Of a stretch of 42,367 bases of DNA, positions 8,144-42,367 are shown in pieces. Positions within the stretch are counted from its first letter, which is position 1. Each line of letters starts with the position of its first letter. Under the pieces are notes generated by a model. It saw only the letters and a list, made by a program, of their open reading frames with translations, did not search any database and had not been told where the DNA came from. The stretch comes from a virus (Duplodnaviria > Heunggongvirae > Uroviricota > Caudoviricetes), in IMG/VR virus record IMGVR_UViG_2563366848_000004. The stretch is one strand, 5' to 3'. Position numbers and translations under genes: made by a program.

Positions 8144-8164
8144 TGCAAAACATCCCGTGTAGTA

Positions 8165-8671: not shown

Positions 8672-8704
8672 GGTTAGAAGAATAAGCCTTTTTCTTAAAC
8701 TTGA

Positions 8705-8760: not shown

Positions 8761-8775
8761 AAATCGGAGACAACG

Positions 8776-8994: not shown

Positions 8995-9005
8995 GGAATG
9001 TAACT

Positions 9006-9545: not shown

Positions 9546-9629
9546 CCGGTTCAAAAATGGCGAAAGCCGCGGTGCTCGAACACCAACGGCTTTCAGGTGC
9601 AAAAACAGTGCGTAATTGCGGAGAACAGT

Positions 9630-11224: not shown

Positions 11225-11225
11225 C

Positions 11226-11426: not shown

Positions 11427-11565
11427 TTTACCGGAGCTTTGTCAGCAGAAAGAGATCGCAGCTTAATGTCCGAGTTTCAGAACATGGTGTAACAAATCCT
11501 GCTACTTCAATGACGTAGATTCAAACCTGATATAATTAGGCTCTTCACAACACGAGGAGCCTAAA

Positions 11566-11802
11566 ATGCACCATTACATGATCCCTATCAACGGAACTGT
11601 TCACCTGATCAAGACTGACTCTCTAATCCCTGAAGGGACTGAGTATAGCTTTGAAGGAGAAAGTCTAATCTGCGCTCATGCCACTTTTAAATCTGGGACG
11701 TATGGCTTCCTGATACCAAAGGGAAATCAGTTGAATAGAGAGCATGCGTTCTGGCATGTAAGTGGAATTCACCCTAATCCCCTGGGAATGGATAAATCGT
11801 AA
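11566..11802 (+). CDS. hypothetical protein (78 aa) in AT-rich insert
   Basis: ORF with GAGGAG SD; lies between two roughly 83 percent identical 64-nt segments. Confidence 0.45.
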   Translation: MHHYMIPINGTVHLIKTDSLIPEGTEYSFEGESLICAHATFKSGTYGFLIPKGNQLNREHAFWHVSGIHPNPLGMDKS

Positions 11803-11913
11803 TCCATAATATGCATGCCATCGTCCTGAACATACGGTGGCATGCATCCGGCACTACAACAGAAACGTTAAAGTGCAAACAATACAATTCGAGCAATATT
11901 CAACCTGTCACAG

Positions 11914-12054
11914 ATGGCGAATACCACCGCCATTTCGTGCATTCTGTGGTTTCTATTACCCATTGCGTTAATGCTGTCCAATCATCAGCTCGCTGAGGCG
12001 CTGGTTAGGGCTAACCTACAGGAGCTTTGTCAGCAGAAACAAATAGCGGCGTAA
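11914..12054 (+). CDS. possible small hydrophobic protein (46 aa) sharing its C-terminal 20 aa with the upstream remnant
   Basis: Hand-translated MANTTAISCILWFLLPIALMLSNHQLAEALVRANLQELCQQKQIAA; no clear SD; overlaps a 61-aa track ORF in another frame. Confidence 0.25.
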   Translation: MANTTAISCILWFLLPIALMLSNHQLAEALVRANLQELCQQKQIAA

Positions 12055-12071
12055 TAAAACATCGCTAATTC

Positions 12072-12100
12072 AACCCGCTACGGCGGGTTTTCTTTTTTTA
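12072..12100 (+). terminator. rho-independent terminator
   Basis: CCCGC-tacg-GCGGG followed by TTTTCTTTTTTT. Confidence 0.45.
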
Positions 12101-12161
12101 CTACTGACAGAAAATTAACAATTTGTGCTCTTAAAGCGTTGATCATTTCCGCGCATAGGTA

Positions 12162-12181
12162 TACTGTATAAAAACACAGTA
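12162..12181 (+). promoter_or_regulatory. LexA (SOS) box overlapping the dinI-like promoter
   Basis: TACTGTATAAAAACACAGTA = CTGT-N8-ACAG with TA flanks, overlapping a TATACT -10-like hexamer, about 20 nt upstream of the DinI-family gene. Confidence 0.7.
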
Positions 12182-12199
12182 AATGCAATGGGGGCCATT

Positions 12200-12433
12200 A
12201 TGAAAGTTGAATTAACCATTGATCGCATGAAAGAACTTCCTAAAGGCGCAGTACCAGCACTGGAGAAAGAACTGCTTAAGCGCCTGAATGATCACTATGA
12301 CAATTGCAGGCTCACAATCCGCCGTGCCGGGGCCGATGGGTTAAGTGTTTTTGGTGGTGACAAGGACGATAAAAAGAAAATTGAATCAATCCTCCAGGAT
12401 ACCTGGGAAAGCGCTGACGACTGGTTTTATTAG
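12200..12433 (+). CDS. dinI: DinI-family DNA-damage-inducible protein
   Basis: MKVELTIDRMKELPKGAVPALEKEL...LSVFGGDKDDKKKIESILQDTWESADDWFY parallels E. coli DinI as remembered (MRIEVTIAKT...SVIGATKEDKQRISEILQETWESADDWF); LexA box upstream. Confidence 0.8.
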   Translation: MKVELTIDRMKELPKGAVPALEKELLKRLNDHYDNCRLTIRRAGADGLSVFGGDKDDKKKIESILQDTWESADDWFY

Positions 12434-12550
12434 AATTGCGCTTAAGGCTGGCGCGCATTTTTCAGAATACCGCAATTTGCGTAACCCTCTGATGCTGCTG
12501 CCGACAATCTTTAATCGCGTCTGTTAGTCGCTCGAAGGGAGAACATAAAT

Positions 12551-12799
12551 GTGAGTGATTCAGCTTTGCAAACGTCAGAAGACAACTGGTATGACATTGT
12601 AAGAAGGTCTGACGGCTGCGTGGTGTTTAGCTTTCCTTCATCGGGCAGGCATCTAATTTATCGCGTCAATGGCATGGTTTCTATGCGGCCTTTGCTGGAT
12701 GATGAAGAGGTCTTTACTCCTAATGGTTTTATGCAGTTTATTCACCGTCTCGGCTACCGGGTAACCCCACCTTCTGATAATATGAAATCAACGGTCTGA
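12551..12799 (+). CDS. hypothetical protein (82 aa)
   Basis: GTG start with AGGGAGA SD; no family recognised. Confidence 0.45.
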   Translation: MSDSALQTSEDNWYDIVRRSDGCVVFSFPSSGRHLIYRVNGMVSMRPLLDDEEVFTPNGFMQFIHRLGYRVTPPSDNMKSTV

Positions 12800-12833
12800 A
12801 CAACCGTAACCTACTGCGCCACGGAGAGAAACC

Positions 12834-13433
12834 ATGGCGCACGAACTACAACTCATCAAGCATTCCTCAGGAATCCTGATCCCCGCTACGCCGGAGACCA
12901 GTGATTTACTGCAATCAAAAATCAAACTCGGCTCCGTACTGGTGGCTGAGTTCCGGCAGGTACGCAACCCGGCCTTTCACCGTCGTTTCTTCGCGTTACT
13001 CAATCTCGGTTTCGAATACTGGGAACCCACCGGCGGGGCAATCTCCTCCAACGAACGCAAGCTGGTAACCGGCTATGCCAAGTTCCTTGCCTCATTCGCG
13101 GGAAGTGAAGCAGCACTCCTGGATGCTGCTGAGCAATATCTGGACCGCATCGCCGATAAGCGTACTGGTAGCATCTGCGCCTGTAAGTCATTCGATGCAT
13201 ATCGTGCATGGGTCACTATTGAGTCCGGCCATTACGACGCCATTCAGCTGCCTGACGGCACCCTCCGCAAACATCCCCGCAGTATCTCATTCGCAAATAT
13301 GGATGAAACTGAGTTCCAGCAGCTGTACAAAGCCGCGCTCGATGTTCTGTGGCGATGGATACTCTCCCGATCATTTCGCAGTTGTGAAGAGGCAGAAAAC
13401 GCCGCCGCCCAGCTGATGAGCTTTGCGGGGTGA
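12834..13433 (+). CDS. hypothetical nin-region protein (199 aa)
   Basis: ORF with GGAGAGA SD; position equivalent to the lambda nin region; no confident family call. Confidence 0.6.
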   Translation: MAHELQLIKHSSGILIPATPETSDLLQSKIKLGSVLVAEFRQVRNPAFHRRFFALLNLGFEYWEPTGGAISSNERKLVTGYAKFLASFAGSEAALLDAAEQYLDRIADKRTGSICACKSFDAYRAWVTIESGHYDAIQLPDGTLRKHPRSISFANMDETEFQQLYKAALDVLWRWILSRSFRSCEEAENAAAQLMSFAG

Positions 13434-13639
13434 TGGCGATGAAATTTTCCTGGTTCCACCATCACGAATGCACCACCGAACAGGCCGACGAGCTGGTGGA
13501 GAAATACCGGGCGCGCGGTGTAAAGACAGAGCGCAGCCTGAATCGCGACAACATCACCTGGACCGTCAGCGCGCAATTGCCGGAAGGCGATAACGCGCCT
13601 CGCCCGAGCCGGGTATGGCAAAGCAAGGCGTGGGGGTGA
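13433..13639 (+). CDS. small hypothetical nin-region protein
   Basis: Short ORF overlapping the stop of the upstream gene; start ambiguous (13430 GTG, 13433 or 13439 ATG). Confidence 0.4.
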   Translation: MAMKFSWFHHHECTTEQADELVEKYRARGVKTERSLNRDNITWTVSAQLPEGDNAPRPSRVWQSKAWG

Positions 13640-13641
13640 GC

Positions 13642-13932
13642 ATGGCAAATTTACGCAAAGAGGCTCGTGGTCGTGATTGTCAGGTTCGAATTCCCGGCGT
13701 CTGCAACGGTAACCCGGAAACGTCTGTACTGGCGCACATTCGCCTGGCCGGGTTATGTGGCACCGGAATCAAACCGCCTGATCTGATTGCCACCATTGCA
13801 TGCTCTGCCTGTCACGACGAGATCGACCGCCGTACACATTTTGTCGATGCTGAGTATGCTAAAGAATGCGCGCTGGAAGGTATGGCGAGAACGCAGGTTA
13901 TCTGGCTGAAAGAGGGGGTAATCAAGGCGTGA
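13642..13932 (+). CDS. YbcO-like protein (DUF1364-type, Cys/His-rich putative nuclease)
   Basis: Start at internal ATG ([28 protein letters not shown]...[10 protein letters not shown]) with GGGGGTGAG SD; immediately upstream of rusA as in DLP12. Confidence 0.7.
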
Positions 13933-14291
13933 ATACTTACAACATCACATTGCCCTGGCCGCCGAGCAATAACCGCTACTACCGCCATAATCGCGGGCGC
14001 ACGCACATCAGCGCAGAAGGGCAGGCATACCGCGATAACGTCGCCCGAATCATTAAAAACGCAATGCTGGATATCGGTCTGGCTATGCCTGTGAAAATCC
14101 GCATTGAGTGCCACATGCCGGATCGCCGTCGCCGTGACCTGGATAATCTGCAAAAGGCCGCTTTTGACGCACTCACCAAAGCAGGTTTCTGGCTGGACGA
14201 TGCTCAGGTCGTTGATTATCGCGTTGTGAAGATGCCCGTTACCAAAGGTGGAAAGCTGGAACTGACAATCACCGGGCTGGAGGCCGTATGA
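13929..14291 (+). CDS. rusA: Holliday junction resolvase RusA
   Basis: GTG start overlapping upstream stop; [108 protein letters not shown] matches E. coli RusA as remembered. Confidence 0.85.
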
Positions 14292-14424
14292 CATTTGAAT
14301 CCTGTTTTTCCGATCACCTCCGCGTTCGCTGGCAGCGGCTTCGCTTATACCACTTTCCCGGCTCTGTGCTAACGGACTACCGGATACTGAAGAATTACGT
14401 GAAAACTTATGCTGGAGAAGCACT

Positions 14425-15207
14425 ATGAACCTTGAAAACACAGTGAAATACCACTTCGCTAAATCCACACTGATTAGCGATTCTCCGCGCGCTACCGCCT
14501 CCGATTCACTGACCGGTACCGACATAATGGCTGCCATGGGCATGACGCAGGAACGCGCCGCAATGGGTTACAGCGCCTTCCTCGGCAAGATGGGCATAAG
14601 CAATAACGACCGGGATCGGGCGATCGGTCTGCTGGCTGAGTACGCGATGACAAAATGCGACAAGGTTGCCGCACTGCGTAAGCTCGGTGCCGCGGTTAAA
14701 CCTCAGGTGATGCACCAGTTGGCCACCTTCGCTTTTGAGGACTATTCCCGCAGCGCTGCCAGCGTGAAGCAGTGCGATTGTTGTGACGGTCAGGGCTTCA
14801 TTGAGGCTGACGTGTTTACCAATAAATTCCGTAAGCCAGAAGGGAAAATGACCGTGTCCGGGATGGTGAAGGTCAAAGAATCCATCAAAGTGCTATGCAA
14901 AAAGTGTAATGGCTCTGGTGTGGTTAGTGCTTCTTGCAGTGATTGCCATGGGCGCGGCAAGGCAGTGAACCAGGCTCTTACTGAGAAACAGGGCGTTCCT
15001 GTTCTGGCTGACTGTAAGCGCTGCGGAGGGCGTGGGTATGAACGACTTCCGTCGACTGAAGCCTATGCTGCTGTATGCCAGATTACTGACGCCATTAGCC
15101 TGGACACCTGGAAAAAGTCTGTTAAGCCATTCTACGACCTGCTGATCACGAAATTTGATATCGAAGAGTCCTGGGCCGAAAAACAGCTTAAGCAGATAAC
15201 GCGGTAA
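14425..15207 (+). CDS. late-gene antitermination protein Q-like
   Basis: 260-aa ORF with GGAGAAG SD; Cys-rich zinc-binding region (CDCCDGQG ... CKKCNGSG ... CSDCHGRG ... CKRCGGRG); immediately upstream of the lysis cassette. Confidence 0.75.
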   Translation: MNLENTVKYHFAKSTLISDSPRATASDSLTGTDIMAAMGMTQERAAMGYSAFLGKMGISNNDRDRAIGLLAEYAMTKCDKVAALRKLGAAVKPQVMHQLATFAFEDYSRSAASVKQCDCCDGQGFIEADVFTNKFRKPEGKMTVSGMVKVKESIKVLCKKCNGSGVVSASCSDCHGRGKAVNQALTEKQGVPVLADCKRCGGRGYERLPSTEAYAAVCQITDAISLDTWKKSVKPFYDLLITKFDIEESWAEKQLKQITR

Positions 15208-15306
15208 CGCCTATAGCGATAGCCTATGATTTTGTCTTGGGCTATTTACTTTTCCCGAATCTGTGTTAATTTTGTCCCAACGATGGGTTAATGCCTTCGT
15301 TTCAAG

Positions 15307-15340
15307 CCCTGCGGATAACACCGTGGGGTTTTTGCGTTTC
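15307..15340 (+). terminator. possible tR'-like terminator downstream of Q
   Basis: CCCTGCGG-ataaca-CCGTGGGG (stem with G-U pairs) followed by TTTTTGCGTTT; weak. Confidence 0.3.
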
Positions 15341-15410
15341 TGGAGACAGCAATACCAAGGTTCGAGACATTCAGGTAAAATTGATGCATTACAGGATGTG
15401 AGGTTGGGGA

Positions 15411-15980
15411 ATGAATAATCTACCCGATGATTACTTTTTGGATGCGGACGACGAACTCGTTGCTTTTCTGGAGAAGCAGGGCGAGGATTGTATACGCGAA
15501 ATTCACCAGTCCAACGCACTAAACAAAGAAAATGGCCAGAAGTTATTGAGTATACTCATTGCTGGCGTGGGCTCGTCATTTTTGTTATTAACGCAACGTA
15601 CAGGTTTTGATTACCTCACCGCTGGAATGTCTGTTTTTTTAGTCTACTGGGCAATGTGTGCGGCTTATCTTGTTCGCTGCGTCCTCGTTGTAAGGTCACG
15701 AGCTCTCGTGTCATCGACACCCTATGCGCTTTACCATGATGGCTATAAAGGGTTTACTGAAGATGATTACACTGGTTTTGAGTCGAAAGGATTTTCAGGA
15801 AAGCGTTCAACATTGAACGTCTTGCGGCGCTACCGGCTTGCGGATTTAACCAGAATGGCTGAAATGAGTAAAAAAGAGAATGCCAGAATAGGCCGAGAAC
15901 TAGAAAGGGTAAGGATCGCTACAATCCTCACCCCTGTTTGTGCACTTGTAATCTCAGTACTTACTTACCTTTTTTTCTGA
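15411..15980 (+). CDS. hypothetical membrane protein (189 aa) at the Q-lysis junction
   Basis: ORF with SD-like GAGGTTGGGGA; acidic N-terminus, two central and one C-terminal hydrophobic segments; occupies the classic moron site between Q and the holin. Confidence 0.55.
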   Translation: MNNLPDDYFLDADDELVAFLEKQGEDCIREIHQSNALNKENGQKLLSILIAGVGSSFLLLTQRTGFDYLTAGMSVFLVYWAMCAAYLVRCVLVVRSRALVSSTPYALYHDGYKGFTEDDYTGFESKGFSGKRSTLNVLRRYRLADLTRMAEMSKKENARIGRELERVRIATILTPVCALVISVLTYLFF

Positions 15981-16110
15981 TGTTTTCAGCAGAATCGGCA
16001 ACAAAGGTATAACCTGTCCTCAGATTTCTTTCGGCTGGCTGTGGAGCCGGTTTAGGCTGTGGTGCGGGTTGAGGCTTATTTTCTCCAGATGGTTTGTTTG
16101 ATTCACTCAT
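15961..16110 (-). CDS. possible proline-rich small protein (49 aa)
   Basis: Hand-translated MSESNKPSGENKPQPAPQPKPAPQPAERNLRTGYTFVADSAENIRKKGK with GGAGAA SD; convergent with and overlapping the end of the 189-aa gene; could be spurious. Confidence 0.25.
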   Translation of the reverse strand: MSESNKPSGENKPQPAPQPKPAPQPAERNLRTGYTFVADSAENIRKKGK

Positions 16111-16202
16111 ATAATTCTCCATGTTTGATAGGGTTATTTTTGGCGATTTAACGATATCAAATACAGTGATTTGCTGCTAGAGCATGCACTTATCTATAAC
16201 TC

Positions 16203-16230
16203 GCCCCGGCACCCGCTGGGGCTTTTTTAT
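16203..16230 (+). terminator. rho-independent terminator
   Basis: GCCCCGGC-accc-GCTGGGGC followed by TTTTTTATTT. Confidence 0.5.
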
Positions 16231-16344
16231 TTCCGGCTCACGGTAATCATCCGCTACGTGCTTTGTTGATAAATCCAACCCGTGAAGCCTGAGCCTATTT
16301 CCCCTCATACCTGAGAGGACTCACAGCAATTAAGAGGGGGCTAA

Positions 16345-16731
16345 ATGTCCGATCCAATTTCCGGTACTGGGCTGGCTGGTGGTGCCCTGACGGGTGCCAG
16401 TGTTTATGGACTGCTGACCGGAACTGATTACGGCGTTGTATTTGGCGCATTTGCAGGGGCTGTATTCTACATAGCAACAGCAGCGGATCTGAGCGCATCG
16501 CGCCGACTGGCATATTTTATCGTGTCGTATATTGCCGGGATCCTTTGCTCTGGGTTGGTTGGCTCCAAGCTGGCAAGCTTGACCGGATACAGTGATAAAC
16601 CTCTGGATGCCATTGGTGCCGTAATCGTATCTGCTTTAGCCGTTAAGATCCTGACGTTCCTGAATAATCAGGATATCGGGTCGCTGGTGGCGCTCATAAC
16701 GCGCCGGGGAGGTTCAGGTGGAGCTAAATGA
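16345..16731 (+). CDS. putative holin
   Basis: 128-aa Gly/Ala-rich membrane protein with several hydrophobic segments, first gene of the lysis cassette upstream of the endolysin. Confidence 0.6.
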   Translation: MSDPISGTGLAGGALTGASVYGLLTGTDYGVVFGAFAGAVFYIATAADLSASRRLAYFIVSYIAGILCSGLVGSKLASLTGYSDKPLDAIGAVIVSALAVKILTFLNNQDIGSLVALITRRGGSGGAK

Positions 16732-16999
16732 CCCGACAGCAACTATAAACGCGCTGTTATGTGCTTGTGTTGTTATTACTCTGATGTTTTATCGTCGTGG
16801 TGATTCGCGGCATCGTCCTTGGGTTTCACGTTTAGCCTGGCTGATTACTGTTACATACAGTGCTGTTCCGTTGGCCTATCTCTGTGGGATTTATCCCCAT
16901 TCCTCATGGCCCATTATCGTGGCGAATACTATTTTTCTTTCCGTGCTGGTGGCCGTCAGAGGCAACGTTGCACGCCTGGTTGATCATCTGAGGCACTAA
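16718..16999 (+). CDS. putative holin/antiholin-like membrane protein
   Basis: 93-aa ORF with three hydrophobic segments; GTG start with GGGAGG SD, overlapping the upstream gene; stop overlaps endolysin start. Confidence 0.5.
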   Translation: MELNDPTATINALLCACVVITLMFYRRGDSRHRPWVSRLAWLITVTYSAVPLAYLCGIYPHSSWPIIVANTIFLSVLVAVRGNVARLVDHLRH

Positions 17000-17613
17000 T
17001 GAACCAACAATTATTTCAAAAGGCGGCTGGTATCAGCGCCGGACTGGCTGTGCGCTGGTTTCAACCAGTAGATGCAGCGATGAAAGAATTCGGCATTACA
17101 GCACCCGCGGATCAGGCCATGTTCATCGCTCAGGTAGGTCATGAGTCTGGTGGCTTTAGCGCTGTAGTTGAAAATTTGAACTACACACCATCTGCGCTGG
17201 TGGCGACGTTCGGAAAGAGGATCACACAGCAGCAGGCTGATGCCCTTGGCAGAACATCCGGACATGCAGCTCGTCAGGATGCTATTGCCAATCTGGTGTA
17301 TAGCAACCGCCTGGGTAACAAAGCGCCCGGCGACGGCTGGAAATATCGCGGCAGAGGGTTAATTCAAATCACTGGCCTCGACAATTATCGCACCTGCGGG
17401 GCTGCTCTGAAGTTAGATTTGGTGACTTCACCTGAACAACTGGAACAGGAACTACAGGCTGCGCGCTCAGCTGCATGGTTCTACACCTCTAAAGGCTGCA
17501 TGATCTACGGTGCCGATATTAATCGTGTTACTCGCATCATTAACGGCGGTCTGAACGGTATTGAGGATCGTAAGGTCCGATACAACAAGGCGCGGGCGGC
17601 GCTGCTGGTATGA
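16999..17613 (+). CDS. endolysin, glycoside hydrolase family 19 (chitinase-like lysozyme)
   Basis: 204 aa; motifs FIAQVGHESGGF ... NRLGNKAPGDGWKYRGRGLIQITG ... RIINGG typical of GH19 phage endolysins. Confidence 0.85.
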   Translation: MNQQLFQKAAGISAGLAVRWFQPVDAAMKEFGITAPADQAMFIAQVGHESGGFSAVVENLNYTPSALVATFGKRITQQQADALGRTSGHAARQDAIANLVYSNRLGNKAPGDGWKYRGRGLIQITGLDNYRTCGAALKLDLVTSPEQLEQELQAARSAAWFYTSKGCMIYGADINRVTRIINGGLNGIEDRKVRYNKARAALLV

Positions 17614-18002
17614 AGATGAGTTATTGGGCGCTTATTTTAACGTTTATTGCTTGTATTGCTGGTGGTCTTGTCTGGTCAGCGAATCATTACCATGGAAAGT
17701 TTCTGGAGGAACAGCGGCGCGCTGACGATGCAGAACAGCGCGCTGATTCCTTTGAGACCATCACCGCGAATGTCCTGCGCACCGTAGCAATAACGAACAT
17801 CATTCTGGAGACAAATCAATATGCCAGGCAGCAGATCGCACTGGAGTCACAGAGAACCGAGAACGATATCAAGGCTGCTGTTGCGGATGATGATTGTGCT
17901 GTTCGTTTTGTGCCTTCTGGCGCAGTTAAGCGGCTGCACGACTACGCGAACGGTCTACGTTCCAGTTCCGGTGGTTCCGTTACCAGCCAACCTGACGGCT
18001 GA
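17610..18002 (+). CDS. i-spanin (Rz-like)
   Basis: 130-aa ORF with N-terminal transmembrane segment and charged coiled-coil-like periplasmic part; follows the endolysin. Confidence 0.7.
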   Translation: MKMSYWALILTFIACIAGGLVWSANHYHGKFLEEQRRADDAEQRADSFETITANVLRTVAITNIILETNQYARQQIALESQRTENDIKAAVADDDCAVRFVPSGAVKRLHDYANGLRSSSGGSVTSQPDG

Positions 18003-18165
18003 AACACCCCAGCCAGATTTACCCGATCCGTTTACGTGGGGAGCAAGCCTTAACCTGAATGTTGCGTTGTTGTCAGCGTTAGCACAGTGCAACAGGGATA
18101 AGGCTGATATCAGGACTTTCGAGAACAACAGGGCAGGACAAACAGATGGCACGATTAAACGTTGA
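17887..18165 (+). CDS. o-spanin (Rz1-like lipoprotein), +1 frame overlapping the Rz-like gene
   Basis: MMIVLFVLCLLAQLSGC lipobox followed by a proline-rich sequence; begins inside the Rz-like gene and extends past its stop. Confidence 0.5.
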   Translation: MMIVLFVLCLLAQLSGCTTTRTVYVPVPVVPLPANLTAETPQPDLPDPFTWGASLNLNVALLSALAQCNRDKADIRTFENNRAGQTDGTIKR

Positions 18166-18331
18166 AGTTATCCCACCAGACAGCGAGGTGCTGAACGGGA
18201 TTTTTGCAGAGATTGAGCGCAAATATGCGCGTCAGCCGCTGACGCCAAAAGTAATTGATGAAATGCAACGCGAAGCGACGCGCCTTGTACGGCGAATGAT
18301 AACCACAAAGGTTACGTTCGTCCGGGACTGA
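18146..18331 (+). CDS. small hypothetical protein (61 aa)
   Basis: Track ORF beginning within the Rz1 3' end; weak SD. Confidence 0.3.
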   Translation: MARLNVEVIPPDSEVLNGIFAEIERKYARQPLTPKVIDEMQREATRLVRRMITTKVTFVRD

Positions 18332-18385
18332 CATTACAGAAGCCCTTCACTGAGGGGCTTCGATAATGGAGCACTGGGATTATTC

Positions 18386-19006
18386 ATGAACAGACCACAC
18401 CCACCAGCGCATTTTACGATGCCACCTGACCCGAAGCCTTACATCAGCATAATGCCCGCCATTGACGTTGGCGAGTGGCTGAATCAGCACATCCTGAGCG
18501 ATGAGGGTGACCTCTACAACCCTGACCACCAGCATTTGCTTGAAGCGGATCTGTGCTTTCTCTGGGCGTCGAACACTTTCGAGAAGAAAGGGCGGTCCGT
18601 GCTGGGGCAGGCGGAAGAAGTGGCAATGCGGGCTGGAGGCTGGCAGAAAGCGCGGATGGAGCAGCAGATGTATGAATGGTTCGGCAGGGTGCCGCAGTTC
18701 ATCATCACGCTGGCCGCCGATTACTGCTCGCAATGTTCCGATCTGGAATTCTGCGCGCTGATAGAGCACGAGCTTTATCACATCTGCCAAGCGACAGATG
18801 AATTTGGTGTGCCGAAGTTCACGCAGGAAGGGCAGCCAAAGCTGAAGCTGCGCGGCCATGACGTGGAAGAGTTTGTGGGCGTGGTTCGCCGTTACGGTGC
18901 GAGCCGTGATGTGCAGGAAATGATTGATGCGGCGAATCAGCCAGCGGAGGTTGCTCATCTCGATATTGCCAGAGCTTGCGGGACGTGCATGCTGCGACTG
19001 GCTTAA
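18386..19006 (+). CDS. hypothetical protein with HExxH motif (possible metallopeptidase-like)
   Basis: 206-aa ORF; IEHELYHICQ contains HELYH; located between lysis and terminase genes. Confidence 0.55.
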   Translation: MNRPHPPAHFTMPPDPKPYISIMPAIDVGEWLNQHILSDEGDLYNPDHQHLLEADLCFLWASNTFEKKGRSVLGQAEEVAMRAGGWQKARMEQQMYEWFGRVPQFIITLAADYCSQCSDLEFCALIEHELYHICQATDEFGVPKFTQEGQPKLKLRGHDVEEFVGVVRRYGASRDVQEMIDAANQPAEVAHLDIARACGTCMLRLA

Positions 19007-19036
19007 AACTGGACTGAATAAGACGAATGGTGATTT

Positions 19037-19510
19037 ATGGCTGCATTAAAACCTGATGTGAAAGCCTTCATCATTCAGTCGCTTGCGTGCTATGACACGC
19101 CGACGCAGGTGGTTGAGGCTGTCCAAAAAGAATTCGGGATCAAGATCACCCGCCAGCAGGCTGAATCTCACGACCCCACGAAGGCCAGCGGTAAGACGCT
19201 CGCCAAAAAGTGGATCGAGATGTTCCACGCTACGCGCGAACGGTTCCTGACCGAAACCAGCGACATTCCGATCGCGAACAAATCCTATCGCCTCCGCGTG
19301 CTTGACCGCATGGCAACCAAAACCGAGGGGATGAAAAACTTCTCCCTGACGGCGCAGCTGATTGAACAGGCCGCGAAAGAGGTTGGCGACGCTTACACCA
19401 ATAAGCTGAAGGTTGAAAGCACTGGCAAGGATGGCGGCCCGATCAAGACCGAGACGACCAACCTCACCGCAGATCAGGCCGCAGAGATTTACCGCAAGAT
19501 GATGGGGTGA
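19037..19510 (+). CDS. putative terminase small subunit
   Basis: 157-aa ORF immediately upstream of the terminase large subunit; assignment mainly positional. Confidence 0.5.
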   Translation: MAALKPDVKAFIIQSLACYDTPTQVVEAVQKEFGIKITRQQAESHDPTKASGKTLAKKWIEMFHATRERFLTETSDIPIANKSYRLRVLDRMATKTEGMKNFSLTAQLIEQAAKEVGDAYTNKLKVESTGKDGGPIKTETTNLTADQAAEIYRKMMG

Positions 19511-19535
19511 TAGCCGCATGTTGCGGCTATGGATT

Positions 19536-19748
19536 CTAGGCTTGTTTTGGTCGAGTAATACGGCCAAGAGCTTTAATTGCAGCGACTTTGACGTTGTGAT
19601 TTAGATCCGAAGATAAATCAAGTAAGCGATTTACATGAGCTGGCGTTGCTGAAGCACTCTCGCCGAGAGCATAAATTGCAGACAATTTTACTTCGTTGTT
19701 AAGGTCGTTGGTTAATTCCAACAACTTAGCGCTAACTGCTGGTGTCAT
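19536..19748 (-). CDS. hypothetical HEAT-like repeat protein (70 aa), antisense between terminase genes
   Basis: Internal ATG preceded by AGGAGG; two repeats of N.VK.AAI.ALG type (NEVKLSAIYALGE / NHNVKVAAIKALGR); comparatively AT-rich. Confidence 0.4.
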   Translation of the reverse strand: MTPAVSAKLLELTNDLNNEVKLSAIYALGESASATPAHVNRLLDLSSDLNHNVKVAAIKALGRITRPKQA

Positions 19749-19819
19749 AAAACCTCCTGTAATTGGTACATAAACAATATCAACTTTGTTACGCAAAAAC
19801 TCAATGCCTGGAATTGTTT

Positions 19820-36705: not shown

Positions 36706-37059
36706 ATGCGATACCGACGCGAAGATGCTGACGGCGATTACACTTTCGGGCAGGGTGACAACACCTTCCTTATCGACAGCCCGGAGTGCGTTGCCCAGGC
36801 CGTAAAAACCCGTTTCGAGCTGTGGCGAGGTCAGTGGTTTCTCGACCTGACAGAAGGCACGCCGTATGTCCAGTCAGTGCTGGGTAAGCAGCGTTCTGAC
36901 GTCTACATCCTGGCTATACGCGAACGCATACAGGACACACCGGGCGTTCTGTCGATTCTTTCCTTTGATACCAATTATGACGGCACCAGTCGCCGCGTTA
37001 CCTTCACCTCCTCCATTGACACAATCTACGGCCAGACGACTGTAACAAGCGAGGCATAA
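36706..37059 (+). CDS. baseplate protein (gpW/gp25-like, putative)
   Basis: 117-aa ORF immediately upstream of the baseplate J-like gene. Confidence 0.55.
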   Translation: MRYRREDADGDYTFGQGDNTFLIDSPECVAQAVKTRFELWRGQWFLDLTEGTPYVQSVLGKQRSDVYILAIRERIQDTPGVLSILSFDTNYDGTSRRVTFTSSIDTIYGQTTVTSEA

Positions 37060-38259
37060 ATGGCTTTGAACCTCGACACGCTGGGGCTATCGGCAACGGT
37101 AACCGCCCAGGGGATTAGTGCGCCTGATTACCAGACAATCCTAGATACACTGACCAGCTATTTCAGGCAGATTTACGGTAGTGATGCCTACCTCGAACCA
37201 GACAGCAAAGACGGGCAGATGGTCGCGCTGGTGGCTCTTGCCGTGCATGACGCTAACAACACCGCTATCGGGATCTACAACTCTTTTTCACCGACGACAG
37301 CGCAGGCCGCAGCGCTTAGCAGCAATGTAAAAATTAACGGGATCACGCGAAAAGTAGCGACAAACTCTACAGCTGACCTTCTGTTAACCGGTACGGCAGG
37401 CACGACTATCTCGAATGGTTCTGCACGGGATAAAAACGGCATAATCTGGAATTTTCCAGCGAGTGTAGCGATCGGCGTTGATGGTACTGTGCTGGTGACG
37501 GCCACATGTGCGAATAGCGGTTCGGTTGCGGCGATGGCCGGGACTATCACCACCATTAACACACCGACTCGCGGCTGGGTGTCGGTAACCAACCCGGCTG
37601 CGGCTACTGTCGGTTCACCAGCAGAAACCGACGCAGAGCTGCGCATTCGGCAGGGGCAAAGCGTAGCGCTATCATCGATCACACCGTTTGAAGGCGTCGA
37701 CGGTGCGATCGCCAACGTTGCGGGCGTGACACGTCACAAGCTCTACGAAAATGATACTGGAGCAACCGACAGCAACGGGTTGCCACCGCATTCAATTTCC
37801 GCCATCGTTGAGGGAGGGGATGTTACTGAAATAGCCCAGACCATCAGGGGGAATAAAGGGCAGGGAACCGCAACTTACGGTACAACTTCTGTCACCGTGC
37901 CGGATACTTACGGTAATCCTCACGTCATCAGTTTTTCGCGTTCTACCGATGTGCCAATTTTTGTAGCCATTACCCTGAAAGTTTTTACCGGGTATACATC
38001 TCAAATCGGCGAGCAGATAAAACAGGCTGTTGCCGATTATATAAATGGCCTGGCAATTGGCGATGACGTTCTGCTGAGTCGCATTTACTCACCGGCGAAT
38101 CTTGGCGTGGTGAGTGGCGGGAATGCACGCTATTACGATATTCAGGAACTGACGATTGGGAAATCCCCGGGGGCTTTGTCGTCATCAAACATTGATATCA
38201 GATACAACGAATCTGCGTCCTGTACACCGGAAAATATCGTTATAACGGTGGAGTCATGA
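37060..38259 (+). CDS. baseplate J-like protein
   Basis: 399-aa ORF; size and position between W-like and I-like genes typical of baseplate J. Confidence 0.7.
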   Translation: MALNLDTLGLSATVTAQGISAPDYQTILDTLTSYFRQIYGSDAYLEPDSKDGQMVALVALAVHDANNTAIGIYNSFSPTTAQAAALSSNVKINGITRKVATNSTADLLLTGTAGTTISNGSARDKNGIIWNFPASVAIGVDGTVLVTATCANSGSVAAMAGTITTINTPTRGWVSVTNPAAATVGSPAETDAELRIRQGQSVALSSITPFEGVDGAIANVAGVTRHKLYENDTGATDSNGLPPHSISAIVEGGDVTEIAQTIRGNKGQGTATYGTTSVTVPDTYGNPHVISFSRSTDVPIFVAITLKVFTGYTSQIGEQIKQAVADYINGLAIGDDVLLSRIYSPANLGVVSGGNARYYDIQELTIGKSPGALSSSNIDIRYNESASCTPENIVITVES

Positions 38260-38936
38260 GCAAATACACCGAACTGATCACGAACTACCACGCCACCAAA
38301 CCTAAATTTCTTGCACATGTTGATCTGATGACCCGGCCGCTTATTGATGTTGCGGCTGCCACCAGAGGGCTGATTACTGCATTTGATATTGACTCTGCGG
38401 TTGGTGTGCAACTTGACATTCTGGGATTGTGGATCGGACGCAGCCGTGTTGTCAGCCAGCCTATCTCAGGTGTTTATTTCAGCTGGGATACCGACGGGCT
38501 TGGATATGATCAGGGTGTATGGCAGGGGCCATACGATCCTGATTCCGGATACATGTACCTCAGCGATGAAACTTATCGTGTCATCCTTAAAGCGAAGATT
38601 GCGATTAATAACTGGGACGGACGGAATGATTCGCTTCCAGCAATTCTTGACGCGGCGACAGCAGGATCCGGACTGCGAATGCAGATAGTCGATAACCAGG
38701 ACATGACGATATCGGTCTGGCTCTTTCCTGATACTGATATTTCAGATGTATCGCGTGAGTTAATTGCTGCAATTAAACAGGGCTATCTCACAGTAAAAGC
38801 CGCTGGCGTCTGGGCCGGTGGCATTGAAATACCCTCGGTGGAAACGCCCAGCGAGGGCACCCGATTCTTTGGGTTCGACATGGACAATGACTATATCGTC
38901 GGTTTCGACGCCGGCGCATGGGGGAAATTACTCTGA
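38256..38936 (+). CDS. tail protein I-like (baseplate wedge/fibre attachment, putative)
   Basis: 226-aa ORF with ATGA-type overlap with neighbours, directly upstream of the tail fibre. Confidence 0.55.
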   Translation: MSKYTELITNYHATKPKFLAHVDLMTRPLIDVAAATRGLITAFDIDSAVGVQLDILGLWIGRSRVVSQPISGVYFSWDTDGLGYDQGVWQGPYDPDSGYMYLSDETYRVILKAKIAINNWDGRNDSLPAILDAATAGSGLRMQIVDNQDMTISVWLFPDTDISDVSRELIAAIKQGYLTVKAAGVWAGGIEIPSVETPSEGTRFFGFDMDNDYIVGFDAGAWGKLL

Positions 38937-39838
38937 TGGCTAAAAATGAATTTAAACCATTTGCAACTGGCTCTGGTGCTAACGTAACAACTCAGACAGA
39001 CTGGGAATCATTACCTGTCCTATCTGCTGGCTTTACATCGGGGAAGGCATCAAGTGCTCAGGTGAACAAAGGTCTGAGGCAAGGAACGGCAATGGCGGCT
39101 GCTGTGGGGCAGTTTATCGCAGATAATACCAATGAGGATGTGAAAGATAATGGTGATATTGCGGGGCTCTCTGCGCAATTAGCGAGTGCGGTAGAGCAGG
39201 CTGCAACAGGACGGCTTATTGGTGTTCGCACAATAACGATATCCGGGACTTATACGCCAACCCCAGGAACGAAAAGCATTATTGTTGAAGTCCAAGGCGC
39301 AGGCGGAGGAGGGGGCGGGGTTGGTACAACTAACTCTACCAGTGTTGCAGTTGGGTGTGGGGGGGGAAGTGGCGCCTACGCTAAATCCCGTATCGCCAAT
39401 TTAGACTCAGCATACACCGTAATTATTGGTGCTGGTGGTGCTGGTGGAGTAAATGGTAATGGAGGGAATGGAGGTAGCACTTCTTTTGGAACGATTACCG
39501 CAGGTGGCGGATATGGTGGTGGTTCAAGTAACTCCGTTCCTCCAATTATCCAGAATGCTTCTGGAATTCCTACAGCCACTGGTGGGAATATCATAAACTT
39601 ATCTGGAAATAACCCTAGCATAGGCATGGCATTTTCTGCCAACGTCATTATTTCGGGAGGAGGTGCTAGTAGTATATTAGGGGCTGGTGGTAGCCCACAC
39701 GGTACAGCAGGCATTGGTAGAGAAGCTACCGGCTATGGTGCTGGAGGTGGTGGCGCAAATGCATATCAAAATAGCAGCGCACAATACAATGGTGCATCTG
39801 GTAGCAGTGGGGTTGTTATTGTCTGGGAGTATGCATAA
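38936..39838 (+). CDS. tail fibre protein with glycine-rich C-terminal domain
   Basis: Start at ATG overlapping upstream stop (MAKNEFKPFATGSGANVTTQTDWESL..., a conserved fibre N-terminus); C-terminal half is Gly-rich repeats (GAGGGGGGVG, GAGGAGGVNGNGGNGG) with lower GC. Confidence 0.75.
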   Translation: MAKNEFKPFATGSGANVTTQTDWESLPVLSAGFTSGKASSAQVNKGLRQGTAMAAAVGQFIADNTNEDVKDNGDIAGLSAQLASAVEQAATGRLIGVRTITISGTYTPTPGTKSIIVEVQGAGGGGGGVGTTNSTSVAVGCGGGSGAYAKSRIANLDSAYTVIIGAGGAGGVNGNGGNGGSTSFGTITAGGGYGGGSSNSVPPIIQNASGIPTATGGNIINLSGNNPSIGMAFSANVIISGGGASSILGAGGSPHGTAGIGREATGYGAGGGGANAYQNSSAQYNGASGSSGVVIVWEYA

Positions 39839-40026
39839 TGAAATACGCTATTATTGAAAATAACATCGTAAAGAATTTGGTTTTATGGAACGGTAAAGGA
39901 GATTTACTTGGTGTGTCACAGCGTTATAAAGTCGATGATGACATAACTGTAAATATCGGAGATGAAGTTAGAGTCAATAATGGAGTGTTAGAAATTGTAA
40001 GTAAATATCCATTTTTCCCATTGTAA
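39838..40026 (+). CDS. small protein coupled to the tail fibre (possible fibre assembly chaperone)
   Basis: 62-aa AT-rich ORF whose ATG overlaps the fibre stop (TAATG). Confidence 0.45.
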   Translation: MKYAIIENNIVKNLVLWNGKGDLLGVSQRYKVDDDITVNIGDEVRVNNGVLEIVSKYPFFPL

Positions 40027-40077
40027 TTTAAAAGATGGGGGTGTCTTCATAGTTGCCCCCACATAGATATCACTATT

Positions 40078-41124
40078 TTATTTGTTATTTTCTTCTAACG
40101 TTATATGTTTGATTGATTCTCTGTTGTAAGTATAAGTTATATGTATTTTCCCATTTGAGCTTTGTATAATCGCAGGATAGGAGAACTCTTTTCCCTCTTG
40201 TGATTCCAGCGTTAACACATTACCCCATGTTTTCCCGTTATCATTAGATCTGGAAATAGACAAGATGCTTCTGTCTTTCCCTGGGTTATGCACAATTAAC
40301 CCTGTACCATCTCGTAATACGATGCCGTCAACACCACTATTAGTTGAGGGTATCGTGCTTTTTCTTAGCGTAGTCCATGAGTGACCACTATCTGATGACT
40401 GAGATTCCATTAATACTCCTTGATCGCTGCGAGTATACATTTTTATCTCATTATCACGGAATTTTAATAGCGTTGGTTGTATAGCTGAGGTGCCTGTAGG
40501 TTTCGATACTTCTATCTTATTAAAATTCTTCATGTTACTGGTTGTTTCTATGTGAACAAACCATCCCTTATCATTCTCCTCACTGGAAGGGAACAAAACG
40601 TTCTTTCCAGAAAGAATTGGCTTGTTTTTTATTGGCCCGTAAATTCCGTTTGGCAATGCTTGTTTTTTACTCCAACTTAACCCATTGTTGGTCGAAGTAA
40701 TATATTTACCTTCCCATGTGCTAGGTGTTTTTCCTACTTTATAGAAAAGGTATGTTTTATTATGTATATTGAATAAAACTGGATTCCATGTAGGAAGCGG
40801 CTTGCCATCCTCACTGCCATAGGCAACAACGCGCGGTTTTGACCATCCGGATTCAGTCATGGAGGATTGCCAAATCTTTACGTCATCATCACCCTCTTTT
40901 GTCCCACCAAACCATGAGACAAGGATGGTTCCATTACTCATCTCTGCAATAGTGCTTGCGTGAGATTCTTTTATCAACCCCAGTGGGAAGATCAATTCTT
41001 GCTTTATAATTTTAAATGTGCTTTCAGCGTGTGCTAATAGTGATAGCTGAAAAGTTAGAAAGCCTAAAATGAAATAAACATATTTACGCATCTTTGCCAT
41101 TCTATAAAAATTTAACATTATCAT
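40078..41124 (-). CDS. secreted BNR/Asp-box repeat protein (sialidase/glycosidase-like), moron
   Basis: 348-aa ORF with AGGGAG SD; N-terminal signal-peptide-like segment ending LLAHA; three Asp-box-like motifs (STNNGLSWS, SSDSGHSWT, SRSNDNGKTWG); AT-rich; opposite strand to the tail genes. Confidence 0.7.
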   Translation of the reverse strand: MIMLNFYRMAKMRKYVYFILGFLTFQLSLLAHAESTFKIIKQELIFPLGLIKESHASTIAEMSNGTILVSWFGGTKEGDDDVKIWQSSMTESGWSKPRVVAYGSEDGKPLPTWNPVLFNIHNKTYLFYKVGKTPSTWEGKYITSTNNGLSWSKKQALPNGIYGPIKNKPILSGKNVLFPSSEENDKGWFVHIETTSNMKNFNKIEVSKPTGTSAIQPTLLKFRDNEIKMYTRSDQGVLMESQSSDSGHSWTTLRKSTIPSTNSGVDGIVLRDGTGLIVHNPGKDRSILSISRSNDNGKTWGNVLTLESQEGKEFSYPAIIQSSNGKIHITYTYNRESIKHITLEENNK

Positions 41125-41192
41125 ATGGTAACACTCCCTGATCTAAAAAAAAACGCTACGTATGGAAACACGCAACGAGCATGCATAGTCTC

Positions 41193-41502
41193 GTCATCAT
41201 GAATCGCCACGGGTTTAACAGACACCTCAGAGTCATTTAAGATGGCTTAAAGAGAGGTGCCCATGAGCGGTAAGCGTTATCCCGAAGAGTTTAAAACTGA
41301 AGCAGTCAAACAGGTTGTTGATCGCGGTTATTCTGTTGCCAGCGTTGCAACACGTCTCGATATCACCACCCACAGCCTTTATGCCTGGATAAAGAAGTAC
41401 GGTCCGGATTCTTCCACTAATAAAGAACAGTCAGATGCTCAGGCCGAGATCCGCCGTCTCCAGAAAGAGCTGAAACGGGTTTGTAGCTTCCTGCCAGCTT
41501 AA
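41193..41502 (+). mobile_element. IS3-family insertion sequence remnant (left end with truncated orfA)
   Basis: TGAATCGCCACGGG... resembles an IS3-family terminal repeat start; followed by an orfA-like HTH ORF that ends prematurely; no orfB or right end present. Confidence 0.45.
41263..41502 (+). pseudogene. IS3-family transposase OrfA fragment
   Basis: MSGKRYPEEFKTEAVKQVVDRGYSVASVATRLDITTHSLYAWIKKYG...EIRRLQKELKRV resembles IS3-family OrfA (HTH plus start of leucine zipper), then diverges into a short non-homologous tail and stops. Confidence 0.5.
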
Positions 41503-41733
41503 TAATTCGCGACCACCATCGGCACCTCGCCCGTCATCCCAGATACGAATGAAATCACCGCGGGCTTCAGGTAATACCAGTGAAGGAAACACTTTCGCCA
41601 GCACAGGGTAATCAGAGGCAGAAAATTTCGCCACGTTGAACTTCAAAAACACCATACTGGACCAGCTGTCGATTACAGTATTTGGCATTGCAGCGGACGG
41701 CCAGAAGAACGGAACGCCAATAGCTGGAGCACC

Positions 41734-41759
41734 TTCTCCCAAACCAACCTTTTTTATAA
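41734..41759. other. hix/gix-like invertase crossover site (degenerate)
   Basis: TTCTCCCAAACCAACCTTTTTTATAA matches hixL (TTCTTGAAAACCAAGGTTTTTGATAA, from memory) at 20 of 26 positions including the AA core; about 60 bp upstream of the invertase start. Confidence 0.35.
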
Positions 41760-41818
41760 CCATCAAAAATCTGGTGATGCTTCGCCGTTTCTCCTGTTTT
41801 CATAACAGGAGAAATCCC

Positions 41819-42367
41819 ATGATTTACGGTTATGCCCGAGTATCAACAAACCACCAGGACACTGAATTGCAACTAACGGCGCTCAAGTCAGCGGGTTGTG
41901 AGAAAATTTTTGAAGAGCATGCCAGCGGGAGGAAATCGAATCGGCCGGTTCTAAAACGGCTGATCGCCACTATGCAGCCGGGGGATGAACTGGTGGTCTG
42001 GAAGCTGGACAGGATAGGCCGCAACGTTCTGCATGCGCTGTTGATGTTCCAGCAGTTACAGGAAAAGGGTATCAACTTCCGCAGTATTACCGATGGCGTG
42101 GATCTCAAAACAGCCAGCGGCCGCTATAACTTTCGTAACATCCTTTCCGCAGCACAATATGAATCTGATCTTAATAGCGGACGTACCTTAGCAGGGCTGG
42201 CCGTAGCCAGGGCAAAAGGGCGAGTTGGTGGTCGCAGGCCTAAGTTCACGGATGAGCAATGGCGGGAAATGGGGGAGCGGATGGCAACCGGTGAATCACG
42301 ACAAAGCGTATCAAAAACGTATGGAGTAGGGCTCTCAACTCTGTATAAAAAGTTTCCAGCTAGTTGA
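41819..42367 (+). CDS. serine recombinase, DNA invertase (Pin/Gin/Hin family)
   Basis: Start at ATG 41819 with AGGAGAAA SD (track ORF has a spurious 61-codon N-terminal extension); MIYGYARVSTNHQDTELQ catalytic-serine N-terminus, resolvase core and C-terminal HTH (SVSKTYGVGLSTLYKKF). Confidence 0.85.
   Translation: MIYGYARVSTNHQDTELQLTALKSAGCEKIFEEHASGRKSNRPVLKRLIATMQPGDELVVWKLDRIGRNVLHALLMFQQLQEKGINFRSITDGVDLKTASGRYNFRNILSAAQYESDLNSGRTLAGLAVARAKGRVGGRRPKFTDEQWREMGERMATGESRQSVSKTYGVGLSTLYKKFPAS

What the first reader, a model, noticed from the sequence alone, without database searches (positions are those of the whole stretch)
41193..41502. IS3-family element reduced to about 300 bp between the BNR gene and the invertase
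Only a putative left end and a prematurely terminated OrfA-like HTH ORF remain, with no orfB. This indicates past IS insertion and deletion at the fibre-invertase junction, which may have disrupted an invertible segment.
Basis: partly seen in the sequence, partly recalled or inferred. Interest (0 to 1): 0.35.

Follow-up and report, generated by a model that had tools for sequence, protein, structure and literature searches.

The report
IS3 fragment scar in prophage
A dead 282-bp stub of a common insertion sequence marks where a phi80-like E. coli prophage lost its invertible tail-fibre switch to a different fibre-plus-sialidase-like cassette; it is an ordinary recombination scar.

Summary
Window 41200-41481 is 282/282 identical to the first 282 nt of a 1,229-bp IS3-family element that is common in Enterobacterales. 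It holds the left inverted repeat, a promoter-like site and orfA codons 1-73. There is no frameshift site, no orfB and no right end anywhere in the window. The IS interior is fused through a 3-bp microhomology (GTT, 41479-41481) to codon ~90 of a minus-strand alternative tail-fibre C-terminus (Sv'). Sv' is followed by one Din-type crossover site (41734-41759) and an intact Gin/Pin-like invertase (41819-42367, 93% identical to phi80 pinL). The prophage sits in the phi80 attachment site (kch-int ... pinL-yciI). Relatives at the same site (E. coli G3/10, AR_0119) keep the whole switch: fibre, tfa, tfa', Sv', invertase and two inverted sites. Here everything from the fibre constant part to Sv' codon ~90 has been replaced by a glycine-rich fibre, orf62, a BNR sialidase-like gene and the IS stub. 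The invertase is therefore orphaned and inversion is impossible. The identical junction occurs in 16 independent records. This is an ordinary scar of a known element.

The parts
38918..39838 (+). Current tail-fibre gene with a glycine-rich C-terminus. Its first ~70-95 codons are homologous to the constant N-terminal part of invertible fibres in related phages. DNA homology to switch-bearing relatives ends at ~39120-39157, which is the left edge of the swapped cassette.
   Evidence: Pfam Gly_rich_2; PHROG tail-fibre families; 58% identity over aa 1-89 to the vB_EcoM-611R5 Stf; blastn breakpoints
39838..40026 (+). orf62, a small gene that always accompanies the glycine-rich fibre. It is part of the imported cassette.
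   Evidence: Same gene order in all BNR-carrying loci; no family hit
40078..41124 (-). BNR-repeat, sialidase-family gene (a moron, 37% GC). In IS-free relatives it is the last gene of the cassette-donor phage type.
   Evidence: Pfam BNR_2, E = 4e-70; PGAP names 'sialidase family protein' and 'exo-alpha-sialidase'; contexts; GC content
41125..41199 (.). 75 bp of donor-phage DNA upstream of the BNR gene, holding a promoter-like site and an intrinsic-terminator-like hairpin. In IS-free relatives this DNA continues ~150 bp further to the phage att end.
   Evidence: Alignment with L004, L005, L008 and L012; consensus scan
41200..41481 (+). IS3-family fragment, nt 1-282 of a 1,229-bp element. It comprises the left inverted repeat (about 41200-41237), a promoter-like site (41215-41243) and orfA codons 1-73 (41263-41481).
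   Evidence: 282/282 identity to the E. coli HS copy; inverted repeats and target duplication of the reference; promoter-like site
41263..41502 (+). Chimeric 79-aa ORF made of OrfA residues 1-73 (HTH) plus 6 codons and a stop read from the antisense of the fibre fragment.
   Evidence: Pfam HTH_Tnp_1; NCBIfam IS3 model positions 1-70; alignment; found only in this context, in 32 collection blocks
41479..41481 (.). GTT microhomology at the IS/fibre joint. It is the last 3 bases shared with the IS and the first 3 shared with the fibre fragment.
   Evidence: Alignments to the IS and to intact Sv'
41479..41759 (-). Remnant of the alternative tail-fibre C-terminal segment (Sv'), about the first 90 of 152 codons. 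It has no start codon of its own and is normally expressed only after inversion.
   Evidence: 96% identity to E. coli 21AR0133 Sv'; 89% aa identity to residues 108-202 of the 611R5 Stf; PHROG 3100 positions 208-291 of 382
41734..41759 (+). Single surviving Din-type crossover site, TTCTCCCAAACCAACCTTTTTTATAA. No partner exists in the window.
   Evidence: intact relatives have two inverted copies; homology to phi80, HK225 and G3/10 begins here
41787..41815 (+). Hairpin with a 12-bp stem covering the invertase Shine-Dalgarno sequence. It corresponds to 'IR3' of the phi80 record.
   Evidence: Fold of -25.1 kcal/mol, z = -4.4; phi80 annotation
41819..42367 (+). Intact serine DNA invertase (pinL-like, 182 aa, catalytic Ser9 present). 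It is now orphaned.
   Evidence: Pfam Resolvase + HTH_7; Gin 3uj3 at E = 1.3e-55 over the full length; 93% nt identity to phi80 pinL and 99.5% to HK225

Best explanation
The feature is a non-functional scar. It is the first 282 bp of a 1,229-bp IS3-family insertion sequence, sitting at the right-hand joint of a tail-fibre cassette replacement inside a phi80-type prophage.

Presumed ancestor (inferred from relatives at the same site): baseplate J, wedge, fibre (constant plus variable part), tfa, tfa' (-), Sv' (-), crossover site, pinL, attR in yciI.

Inferred sequence of events:
1. A related phage type ends in a glycine-rich fibre, orf62 and a BNR sialidase-like gene. It had an IS copy inserted 75 bp upstream of the BNR gene. 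This joint is shown: the left inverted repeat is intact, and donor DNA continues past that point in IS-free relatives.
2. Recombination replaced the resident switch with this cassette.
3. The left crossover lies in the conserved fibre N-terminus, around 39120-39157.
4. The right joint is an illegitimate, 3-bp-microhomology join between IS nt 282 and Sv' codon ~90 (shown). Whether that join was made between two molecules or by deletion within one molecule is not resolved.

Consequences:
- The IS stub cannot transpose, because it has one end only and no transposase.
- The fibre switch cannot invert, because one crossover site remains and there are no alternative fibre or tfa genes.
- The invertase survives intact as an orphan.
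For: - IS identity and extent.
- Full-length reference with inverted repeats, target duplication and frameshifted transposase.
- True left-end insertion joint, with donor DNA continuing ~150 bp in IS-free relatives.
- Donor module shared with the E. coli E89 prophage up to 41201 at 93% identity.
- Joint to Sv' with GTT overlap.
- Sv' identity and truncation.
- Single crossover site.
- Invertase intact and Gin/pinL-like.
- att core repeat between kch and int and again at the yciI 3' end, so the scar lies inside one att-bounded prophage. This matches the phi80 layout (GenBank annotation; junctions kch-int and pinL-tonB in PMC5727415).
- Ancestral layout with two inverted sites at the same locus in E. 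coli G3/10 and AR_0119, and in phages Omnitron and vB_EcoM-611R5.
- Single origin: identical junction and 0 SNPs in the IS and Sv' parts across 16 records.
Against: - No intermediate was found. None of the BNR-carrying loci examined has a full-length IS at this position, and the one metagenome contig with the left-end joint breaks inside the IS.
- The order of events is therefore inferred. It is not known whether the IS was complete when the joint formed, or whether the join was inter- or intramolecular.
- The left boundary of the swap is only mapped to where ~80-89% nucleotide homology fades, not to a sharp breakpoint.
- The IS could not be named, because ISfinder is not available here.
Confidence: 0.85

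Rival explanations
1. Deletion in cis. A donor-type prophage carrying the IS and a switch-bearing prophage lay next to each other on one chromosome, for example as a tandem or double lysogen at yciI. One deletion from IS nt 282 to Sv' codon ~90 then removed everything between them.
For: The joint is a simple microhomology deletion-type junction. Both prophage types occur at or near this locus. This gives the same end product as the best explanation.
Against: IS-free donor-type prophages end in a different, tRNA-like att and sit at other chromosomal sites. No tandem arrangement was seen among the loci examined.
Confidence: 0.25
2. The remnant is a domesticated small regulator. The 79-aa HTH protein would be expressed from the retained IS promoter and would act in trans on full-length copies of the same IS or on neighbouring genes. 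Alternatively, the IS promoter would drive pinL.
For: A promoter-like site, the ribosome-binding site and the complete HTH are retained. The orientation is the same as pinL. The module is conserved without SNPs in 16 records.
Against: The absence of SNPs reflects recent origin, not selection: the fragment is 100% identical to active IS copies. The C-terminal 19 residues of OrfA, which I take to include a leucine-zipper-like part, are lost. A terminator-like hairpin and the IR3 hairpin lie before pinL. There are no expression data.
Confidence: 0.05
3. Assembly artefact. A full IS, or unrelated DNA, was collapsed by the assembler into a chimeric joint.
For: IS copies are repeats and often break assemblies. 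One metagenome contig ends inside the IS.
Against: The identical junction occurs in 16 independent records from NCBI, ENA and Logan, including multi-megabase and complete chromosomes, always with the same spacing.
Confidence: 0.01
4. Invertase-mediated deletion. PinL would have recombined its crossover site with a pseudo-site in the IS.
For: Elsewhere the crossover site is clearly a mosaic boundary: homology to phi80, HK225 and L030 breaks exactly at it.
Against: The IS/Sv' joint lies 255 bp away from the crossover site, which is itself intact. The IS sequence at the break does not resemble a Din site (only AAAC matches), and no second site scores well.
Confidence: 0.01

Closest known systems
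The 1,229-bp IS3-family insertion sequence found in E. coli HS (12 places in the HS chromosome) and on many Enterobacterales plasmids. PGAP calls it only 'IS3 family transposase'. From my memory the size and host range fit ISEhe3/IS1222-like elements, but this was not verified.
   Same: nt 1-282 are 100% identical: same left inverted repeat, same orfA start and same HTH. The element is in 2,213 of 5,426 complete E. coli genomes and 2,744 plasmid records.
   Different: Only 23% of the element is present. There is no frameshift site, orfB/DDE domain, right inverted repeat or detectable target duplication, so it is a dead fragment.
The phage phi80 pinL region (GenBank JX871397): fibre pseudogene fragment, IR3 hairpin, pinL, attP, int
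   Same: Same integration site (yciI), and the same order of fibre fragment (-), hairpin and invertase next to att. The DNA is 93% identical from the crossover site through pinL. phi80 also carries only an 'internal fragment' of a tail-collar fibre gene, so an orphaned pinL is already on record.
   Different: In phi80 the DNA left of the site is a different fragment followed by dinL and a siphovirus fibre, with no IS. Here the fragment is a longer Sv' remnant cut off by an IS stub and preceded by a myovirus-type module.
Din-family invertible tail-fibre switches (Mu Gin/G segment, e14 Pin/P segment, P1 Cin). Nearest intact examples are the E. coli G3/10 and AR_0119 prophages at yciI, Citrobacter phage Omnitron and Escherichia phage vB_EcoM-611R5.
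   Same: Gin-like serine invertase (E = 1.3e-55), a 26-bp crossover site of the Din type, and an alternative fibre C-terminus in inverted orientation next to the invertase.
   Different: Only one crossover site, one truncated variable segment and no tfa genes remain, so the switch cannot operate.

Membership tests
IS3-family insertion sequence | Terminal inverted repeats beginning 5'-TG and ending CA-3' | tested here: inconclusive
   The left repeat is present and identical to the reference (TGAATCGCCACGG..., 41200 onward). The right repeat is absent from the window. This fits a fragment of a member, not a complete element.
IS3-family insertion sequence | orfA encoding an HTH (HTH_Tnp_1) protein | tested here: met
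   Pfam HTH_Tnp_1, E = 1.1e-19; NCBIfam transpos_IS3 positions 1-70. The ORF is truncated after residue 73 of 92.
IS3-family insertion sequence | Programmed -1 frameshift site and orfB with a DDE (rve) catalytic domain | tested here: not met
   Present in the full reference (A7G at IS nt ~304-311; PGAP note 'programmed frameshift'). Absent from the window, because the break at nt 282 lies before the site and no orfB similarity exists anywhere.
IS3-family insertion sequence | Short (3-bp) target-site duplication | not testable with these tools
   Only one end survives. The reference copy has a TTC duplication.
Din-family (Gin/Pin/Hin/Cin) invertible tail-fibre switch | Serine invertase with an N-terminal catalytic Ser and a C-terminal HTH | tested here: met
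   Resolvase + HTH_7 domains; full-length alignment to Gin; the motif YARVST carries Ser9.
Din-family (Gin/Pin/Hin/Cin) invertible tail-fibre switch | Two 26-bp crossover sites in inverted orientation flanking the segment | tested here: not met
   Only one site (41734-41759). The next-best candidates have at least 7 of 20 mismatches. Intact relatives have two.
Din-family (Gin/Pin/Hin/Cin) invertible tail-fibre switch | Two alternative fibre C-termini with their assembly (tfa) genes in opposite orientation | tested here: not met
   Only ~90 codons of one variable segment remain and there are no tfa genes. Compare.
Din-family (Gin/Pin/Hin/Cin) invertible tail-fibre switch | Fis-dependent recombinational enhancer within the 5' part of the invertase gene | not tested
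   No Fis-site model was applied. The gene is 99.5-99.7% identical to those of HK225 and G3/10.
phi80-type prophage (integration module) | Integration at yciI, with int next to kch, pinL next to yciI/tonB, and an att core repeat at both ends | tested here: met
   The 17-bp repeat AGAACACTTTCTTAAAT lies between kch and int and again at the yciI 3' end. Flanks. phi80 record and PMC5727415.

The most novel reading that the evidence does not exclude
The scar-bearing right end is not inert. Either the truncated OrfA (complete HTH, own promoter) acts as a trans-acting modulator of the many full-length copies of this IS. Or the orphan PinL, kept intact with a solo site in phi80, HK225 and this lineage, has a retained role, such as acting in trans on invertible segments of other prophages or promoting mosaic exchange at its crossover site.
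Probability: 0.06. Interest if true: 0.4.

Novelty: already known. Interest (0 to 1): 0.12.

Why it matters
It matters mainly for annotation. The 79-aa 'transposase' ORF and the overlapping 110-aa ORF that gene callers report here are a chimeric pseudogene and a promoterless fibre fragment. The invertase should be flagged as orphaned.

The locus is also a clean, datable example of how phage host-range modules are swapped. An invertible Stf/Tfa switch was replaced by a glycine-rich fibre plus a sialidase-like gene, with an illegitimate joint inside an IS. The scar has apparently not hindered spread of the phage. The same end, with no differences over the 6.3 kb compared (8.5 kb inferred from identical gene coordinates), sits in E. 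coli and in an Enterobacter-like chromosome. The scar could serve as a lineage marker for this prophage.

Tried and rejected
1. Transposable (Mu-like) phage inserted into an IS. I considered this when the BNR gene turned up next to many different chromosomal flanks. Rejected: IS-free relatives share a common ~150-bp end with a tRNA-like att and carry tyrosine integrases.

2. The invertase and fibre fragment as a fossil of an older element lying outside the current prophage. Rejected: the att core repeat lies beyond the invertase, at the yciI 3' end, as in phi80.

3. Pin-mediated deletion. Rejected because of the position and sequence of the joint.

4. Assembly artefact. Rejected because the junction occurs in 16 independent records.

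5. Search for an intermediate with a full IS.
   - No complete E. coli genome covers either joint.
   - One metagenome contig with the left-end joint breaks inside the IS.
   - There was no hit in the species-representative genomes.

6. Naming the IS. PGAP and PLSDB give only 'IS3 family transposase'. Literature searches for candidate names or for the length gave nothing usable. The phi80 genome paper (PMC3510586) is not held.

7. tRNA scans of the window and the att flanks found nothing.

Full report
**1. What is at the coordinates**

The sequence from 41200 (TGAATCGCCACGG...) to 41481 (...GAAACGGGTT) matches an element annotated 'IS3 family transposase' in 2,213 of 5,426 complete E. coli genomes at 99-100% identity.

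I took the copy in E. coli HS (L001) as reference. It has these properties:
- It is 1,229 bp long (L001 2508-3736).
- It has 38-nt imperfect terminal inverted repeats.
- It is flanked by a 3-bp duplication (TTC).
- It encodes a 92-aa OrfA and an orfB reached by programmed frameshift.

The window holds exactly nt 1-282 of this element, 282/282 identical. Nothing else of the element is in the window: no A7G slippery site (which lies just beyond the break), no orfB and no right inverted repeat.

The ORF at 41263-41502 is OrfA residues 1-73 followed by six unrelated codons and a stop. It hits Pfam HTH_Tnp_1 (E = 1.1e-19) and positions 1-70 of the NCBIfam IS3 model.

The 41193-41199 similarity seen by megablast is flank.

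**2. The two joints**

*Left joint.* The left inverted repeat abuts DNA 75 bp upstream of the BNR-repeat gene (40078-41124, minus strand). In four independent IS-free relatives (L004, L005, L008, L012) that DNA runs straight through the insertion point (...GTCTCGTCATCA|TGTGCCATTTTTG...). It continues for about 150 bp to a shared end with a tRNA-like att. The left joint is therefore an ordinary transposition joint.

*Right joint.* IS identity stops at ...AAACGGGTT. From GTTTGTAGC... onward the window is 96% identical to E. coli 21AR0133 over 41479-42367. Over the Sv' part it is near-identical in the alignment to E. coli Z1323 and 95.6% identical to phage vB_EcoM-611R5. The matched gene is a minus-strand 'phage tail protein, missing N-terminus' lying next to a recombinase gene. 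The two parents overlap by 3 bp (GTT, 41479-41481), the signature of illegitimate recombination.

**3. What lies to the right**

The minus-strand fragment (41479-41759) is about the first 90 of 152 codons of an alternative tail-fibre C-terminus (Sv').
- It matches PHROG 3100 'tail fiber protein' at positions 208-291 of 382.
- It is 89% identical to residues 108-202 of the expressed Stf of phage vB_EcoM-611R5.

At 41734-41759 sits TTCTCCCAAACCAACCTTTTTTATAA, a Din-type crossover site. It is the only one in the window: the next-best candidates have at least 7 mismatches in 20 specified positions.

The gene at 41819-42367 is an intact 182-aa serine invertase.
- It has Resolvase and HTH_7 domains.
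- It aligns over its full length to Mu Gin (3uj3, E = 1.3e-55).
- Ser9 is present.
- At DNA level it is 99.5% identical to phage HK225 and 93% identical to phi80 pinL.

**4. Which prophage this is**

The window runs from the start codon of a tyrosine integrase to the stop codon of the invertase.
- In public assemblies the integrase is always next to kch.
- The invertase is always next to yciI-tonB.
- A 17-bp direct repeat (AGAACACTTTCTTAAAT) lies between kch and int and again at the 3' end of yciI.

This is the phi80 layout. The phi80 GenBank record places pinL, an IHF site, the attP core and int in that order. A published diagnostic PCR for phi80 lysogens uses the kch-int and pinL-tonB junctions at yciI (PMC5727415). 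So the IS stub, the fibre fragment and the invertase all lie inside one att-bounded prophage.

The phi80 record already annotates an 'internal fragment, phage tail collar domain protein (pseudogene)' and an 'IR3' hairpin in front of pinL. An orphaned pinL is therefore not new.

**5. What was lost**

At the same yciI site, E. coli G3/10 and AR_0119 carry this order: baseplate V, a 117-aa protein, baseplate J, DUF2612 wedge, fibre, tfa, tfa' (-), Sv' (-), recombinase, yciI. In G3/10 two inverted crossover sites lie ~1.85 kb apart. Phages Omnitron and vB_EcoM-611R5 have the same module with an intact switch.

Compared with G3/10 and AR_0119, the window behaves as follows:
- It is homologous from ~35700 to 39120-39157 at 86-93% identity. 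This stretch ends in the constant N-terminal part of the fibre gene, ~80-95 bp before the position of the left crossover site in G3/10.
- It is homologous again from 41731-41734 to the end at 99.7% identity.

Between these points the window instead carries the glycine-rich fibre C-terminus, orf62, the BNR gene and 75 bp of upstream DNA. This block is 93% identical to the end of a different prophage type (E. coli E89, window 36706-41201), which has no invertase. After it come the IS stub and the Sv' remnant.

The switch has thus lost its left site, its expressed variable part, both tfa genes and the last third of Sv'.

**6. Most likely history**

Shown:
- an IS copy inserted 75 bp upstream of the BNR gene in cassette-donor DNA;
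- an illegitimate 3-bp-microhomology join between IS nt 282 and Sv' codon ~90.

Inferred:
- the join was the right-hand crossover of a cassette exchange between a donor phage and a resident switch-bearing phi80-type prophage;
- the left crossover fell in the homologous fibre N-terminus or baseplate genes.

A deletion in cis within a tandem arrangement would give the same product and cannot be excluded.

The event happened once. The identical 32-nt junction is in 16 distinct records, with no SNP in the IS or Sv' parts and 0-5 SNPs over the 2.29 kb from the BNR gene to the invertase.

Upstream tail genes differ by ~8% between some carriers. One carrier (CP095180.1) has a chromosomal flank only 74-79% identical to E. 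coli, with a TonB 91% identical to an Enterobacter sp. Yet its prophage end shows no differences from an E. coli copy over the 6.3 kb compared, and the gene coordinates are identical out to 8.5 kb. The scar-bearing phage end has therefore spread recently, which argues that the scar is harmless.

**7. Function**

The stub cannot transpose. It keeps a promoter-like site (TTAACA-17-TAAGAT, 41215-41243) and a complete HTH, so a 79-aa protein might be made. Nothing here shows that it is, and the identity to active copies reflects youth rather than selection.

The BNR gene keeps its own promoter-like site and an upstream terminator-like hairpin within the retained 75 bp, so the IS probably does not affect it.

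The invertase is intact but has only one substrate site in cis. A 12-bp-stem hairpin covers its ribosome-binding site.

**8. Verdict**

This is an ordinary truncated copy of a known, very common IS, marking a phage mosaic joint. Novelty: already known. Interest: low.

Noticed in passing
window 40078-41124 (-), with 41125-41199: BNR-repeat sialidase-family gene at the prophage end. It is 37% GC against 52% for the window and has its own promoter-like site and an upstream terminator-like hairpin (41177-41154). It has no PHROG or NCBIfam family. It is present in only 2 of 5,426 complete E. coli genomes but in 218 blocks of the assembly collection. It looks like a moron of unknown role.
   Followed up: partly
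window 41787-41815: A 12-bp-stem hairpin (-25 kcal/mol, z = -4.4) covers the Shine-Dalgarno sequence of the invertase. It is conserved in relatives and annotated as 'IR3' in the phi80 record. It may be a translational brake on pinL.
   Followed up: partly
window 41731-41759; L030 3561; L042 (phi80) 5366; L062 5501: Homology between this window and phi80, HK225, L030, G3/10 and Omnitron begins exactly at the crossover site, with unrelated DNA to its left in each lineage. The site behaves as a mosaic boundary between phage modules.
   Followed up: partly
L028 (CP095180.1) 1-8549 versus 8550-16549: The prophage end carrying the scar shows no differences from an E. coli copy over the 6.3 kb compared. 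The chromosomal flank is only 74-79% identical to E. coli, and its TonB is 91% identical to an Enterobacter sp. This points to recent inter-genus transfer into the same yciI site.
   Followed up: partly
L012 about 9064-9790: In another carrier of the BNR phage type, an IS1 copy abuts the att end just beyond the BNR gene. This phage end seems to collect IS insertions.
   Followed up: no
window 1-1194 and 42365-42367: The window starts at the first base of the integrase start codon and ends at the last base of the invertase stop codon. Both att sites and the host flanks are therefore cut off and had to be recovered from other assemblies.
   Followed up: yes
window 1-19800 versus 19838-41201: The prophage is a mosaic. 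The structural genes from the terminase to the BNR gene are 88-97% identical to the E. coli E89 prophage, which sits between dacD and sbcB. The integrase and early region are unrelated to E89 and are of the phi80/Rac-like lambdoid type (RecT, exonuclease VIII, KilR, YdaS/YdaT in relatives).
   Followed up: partly
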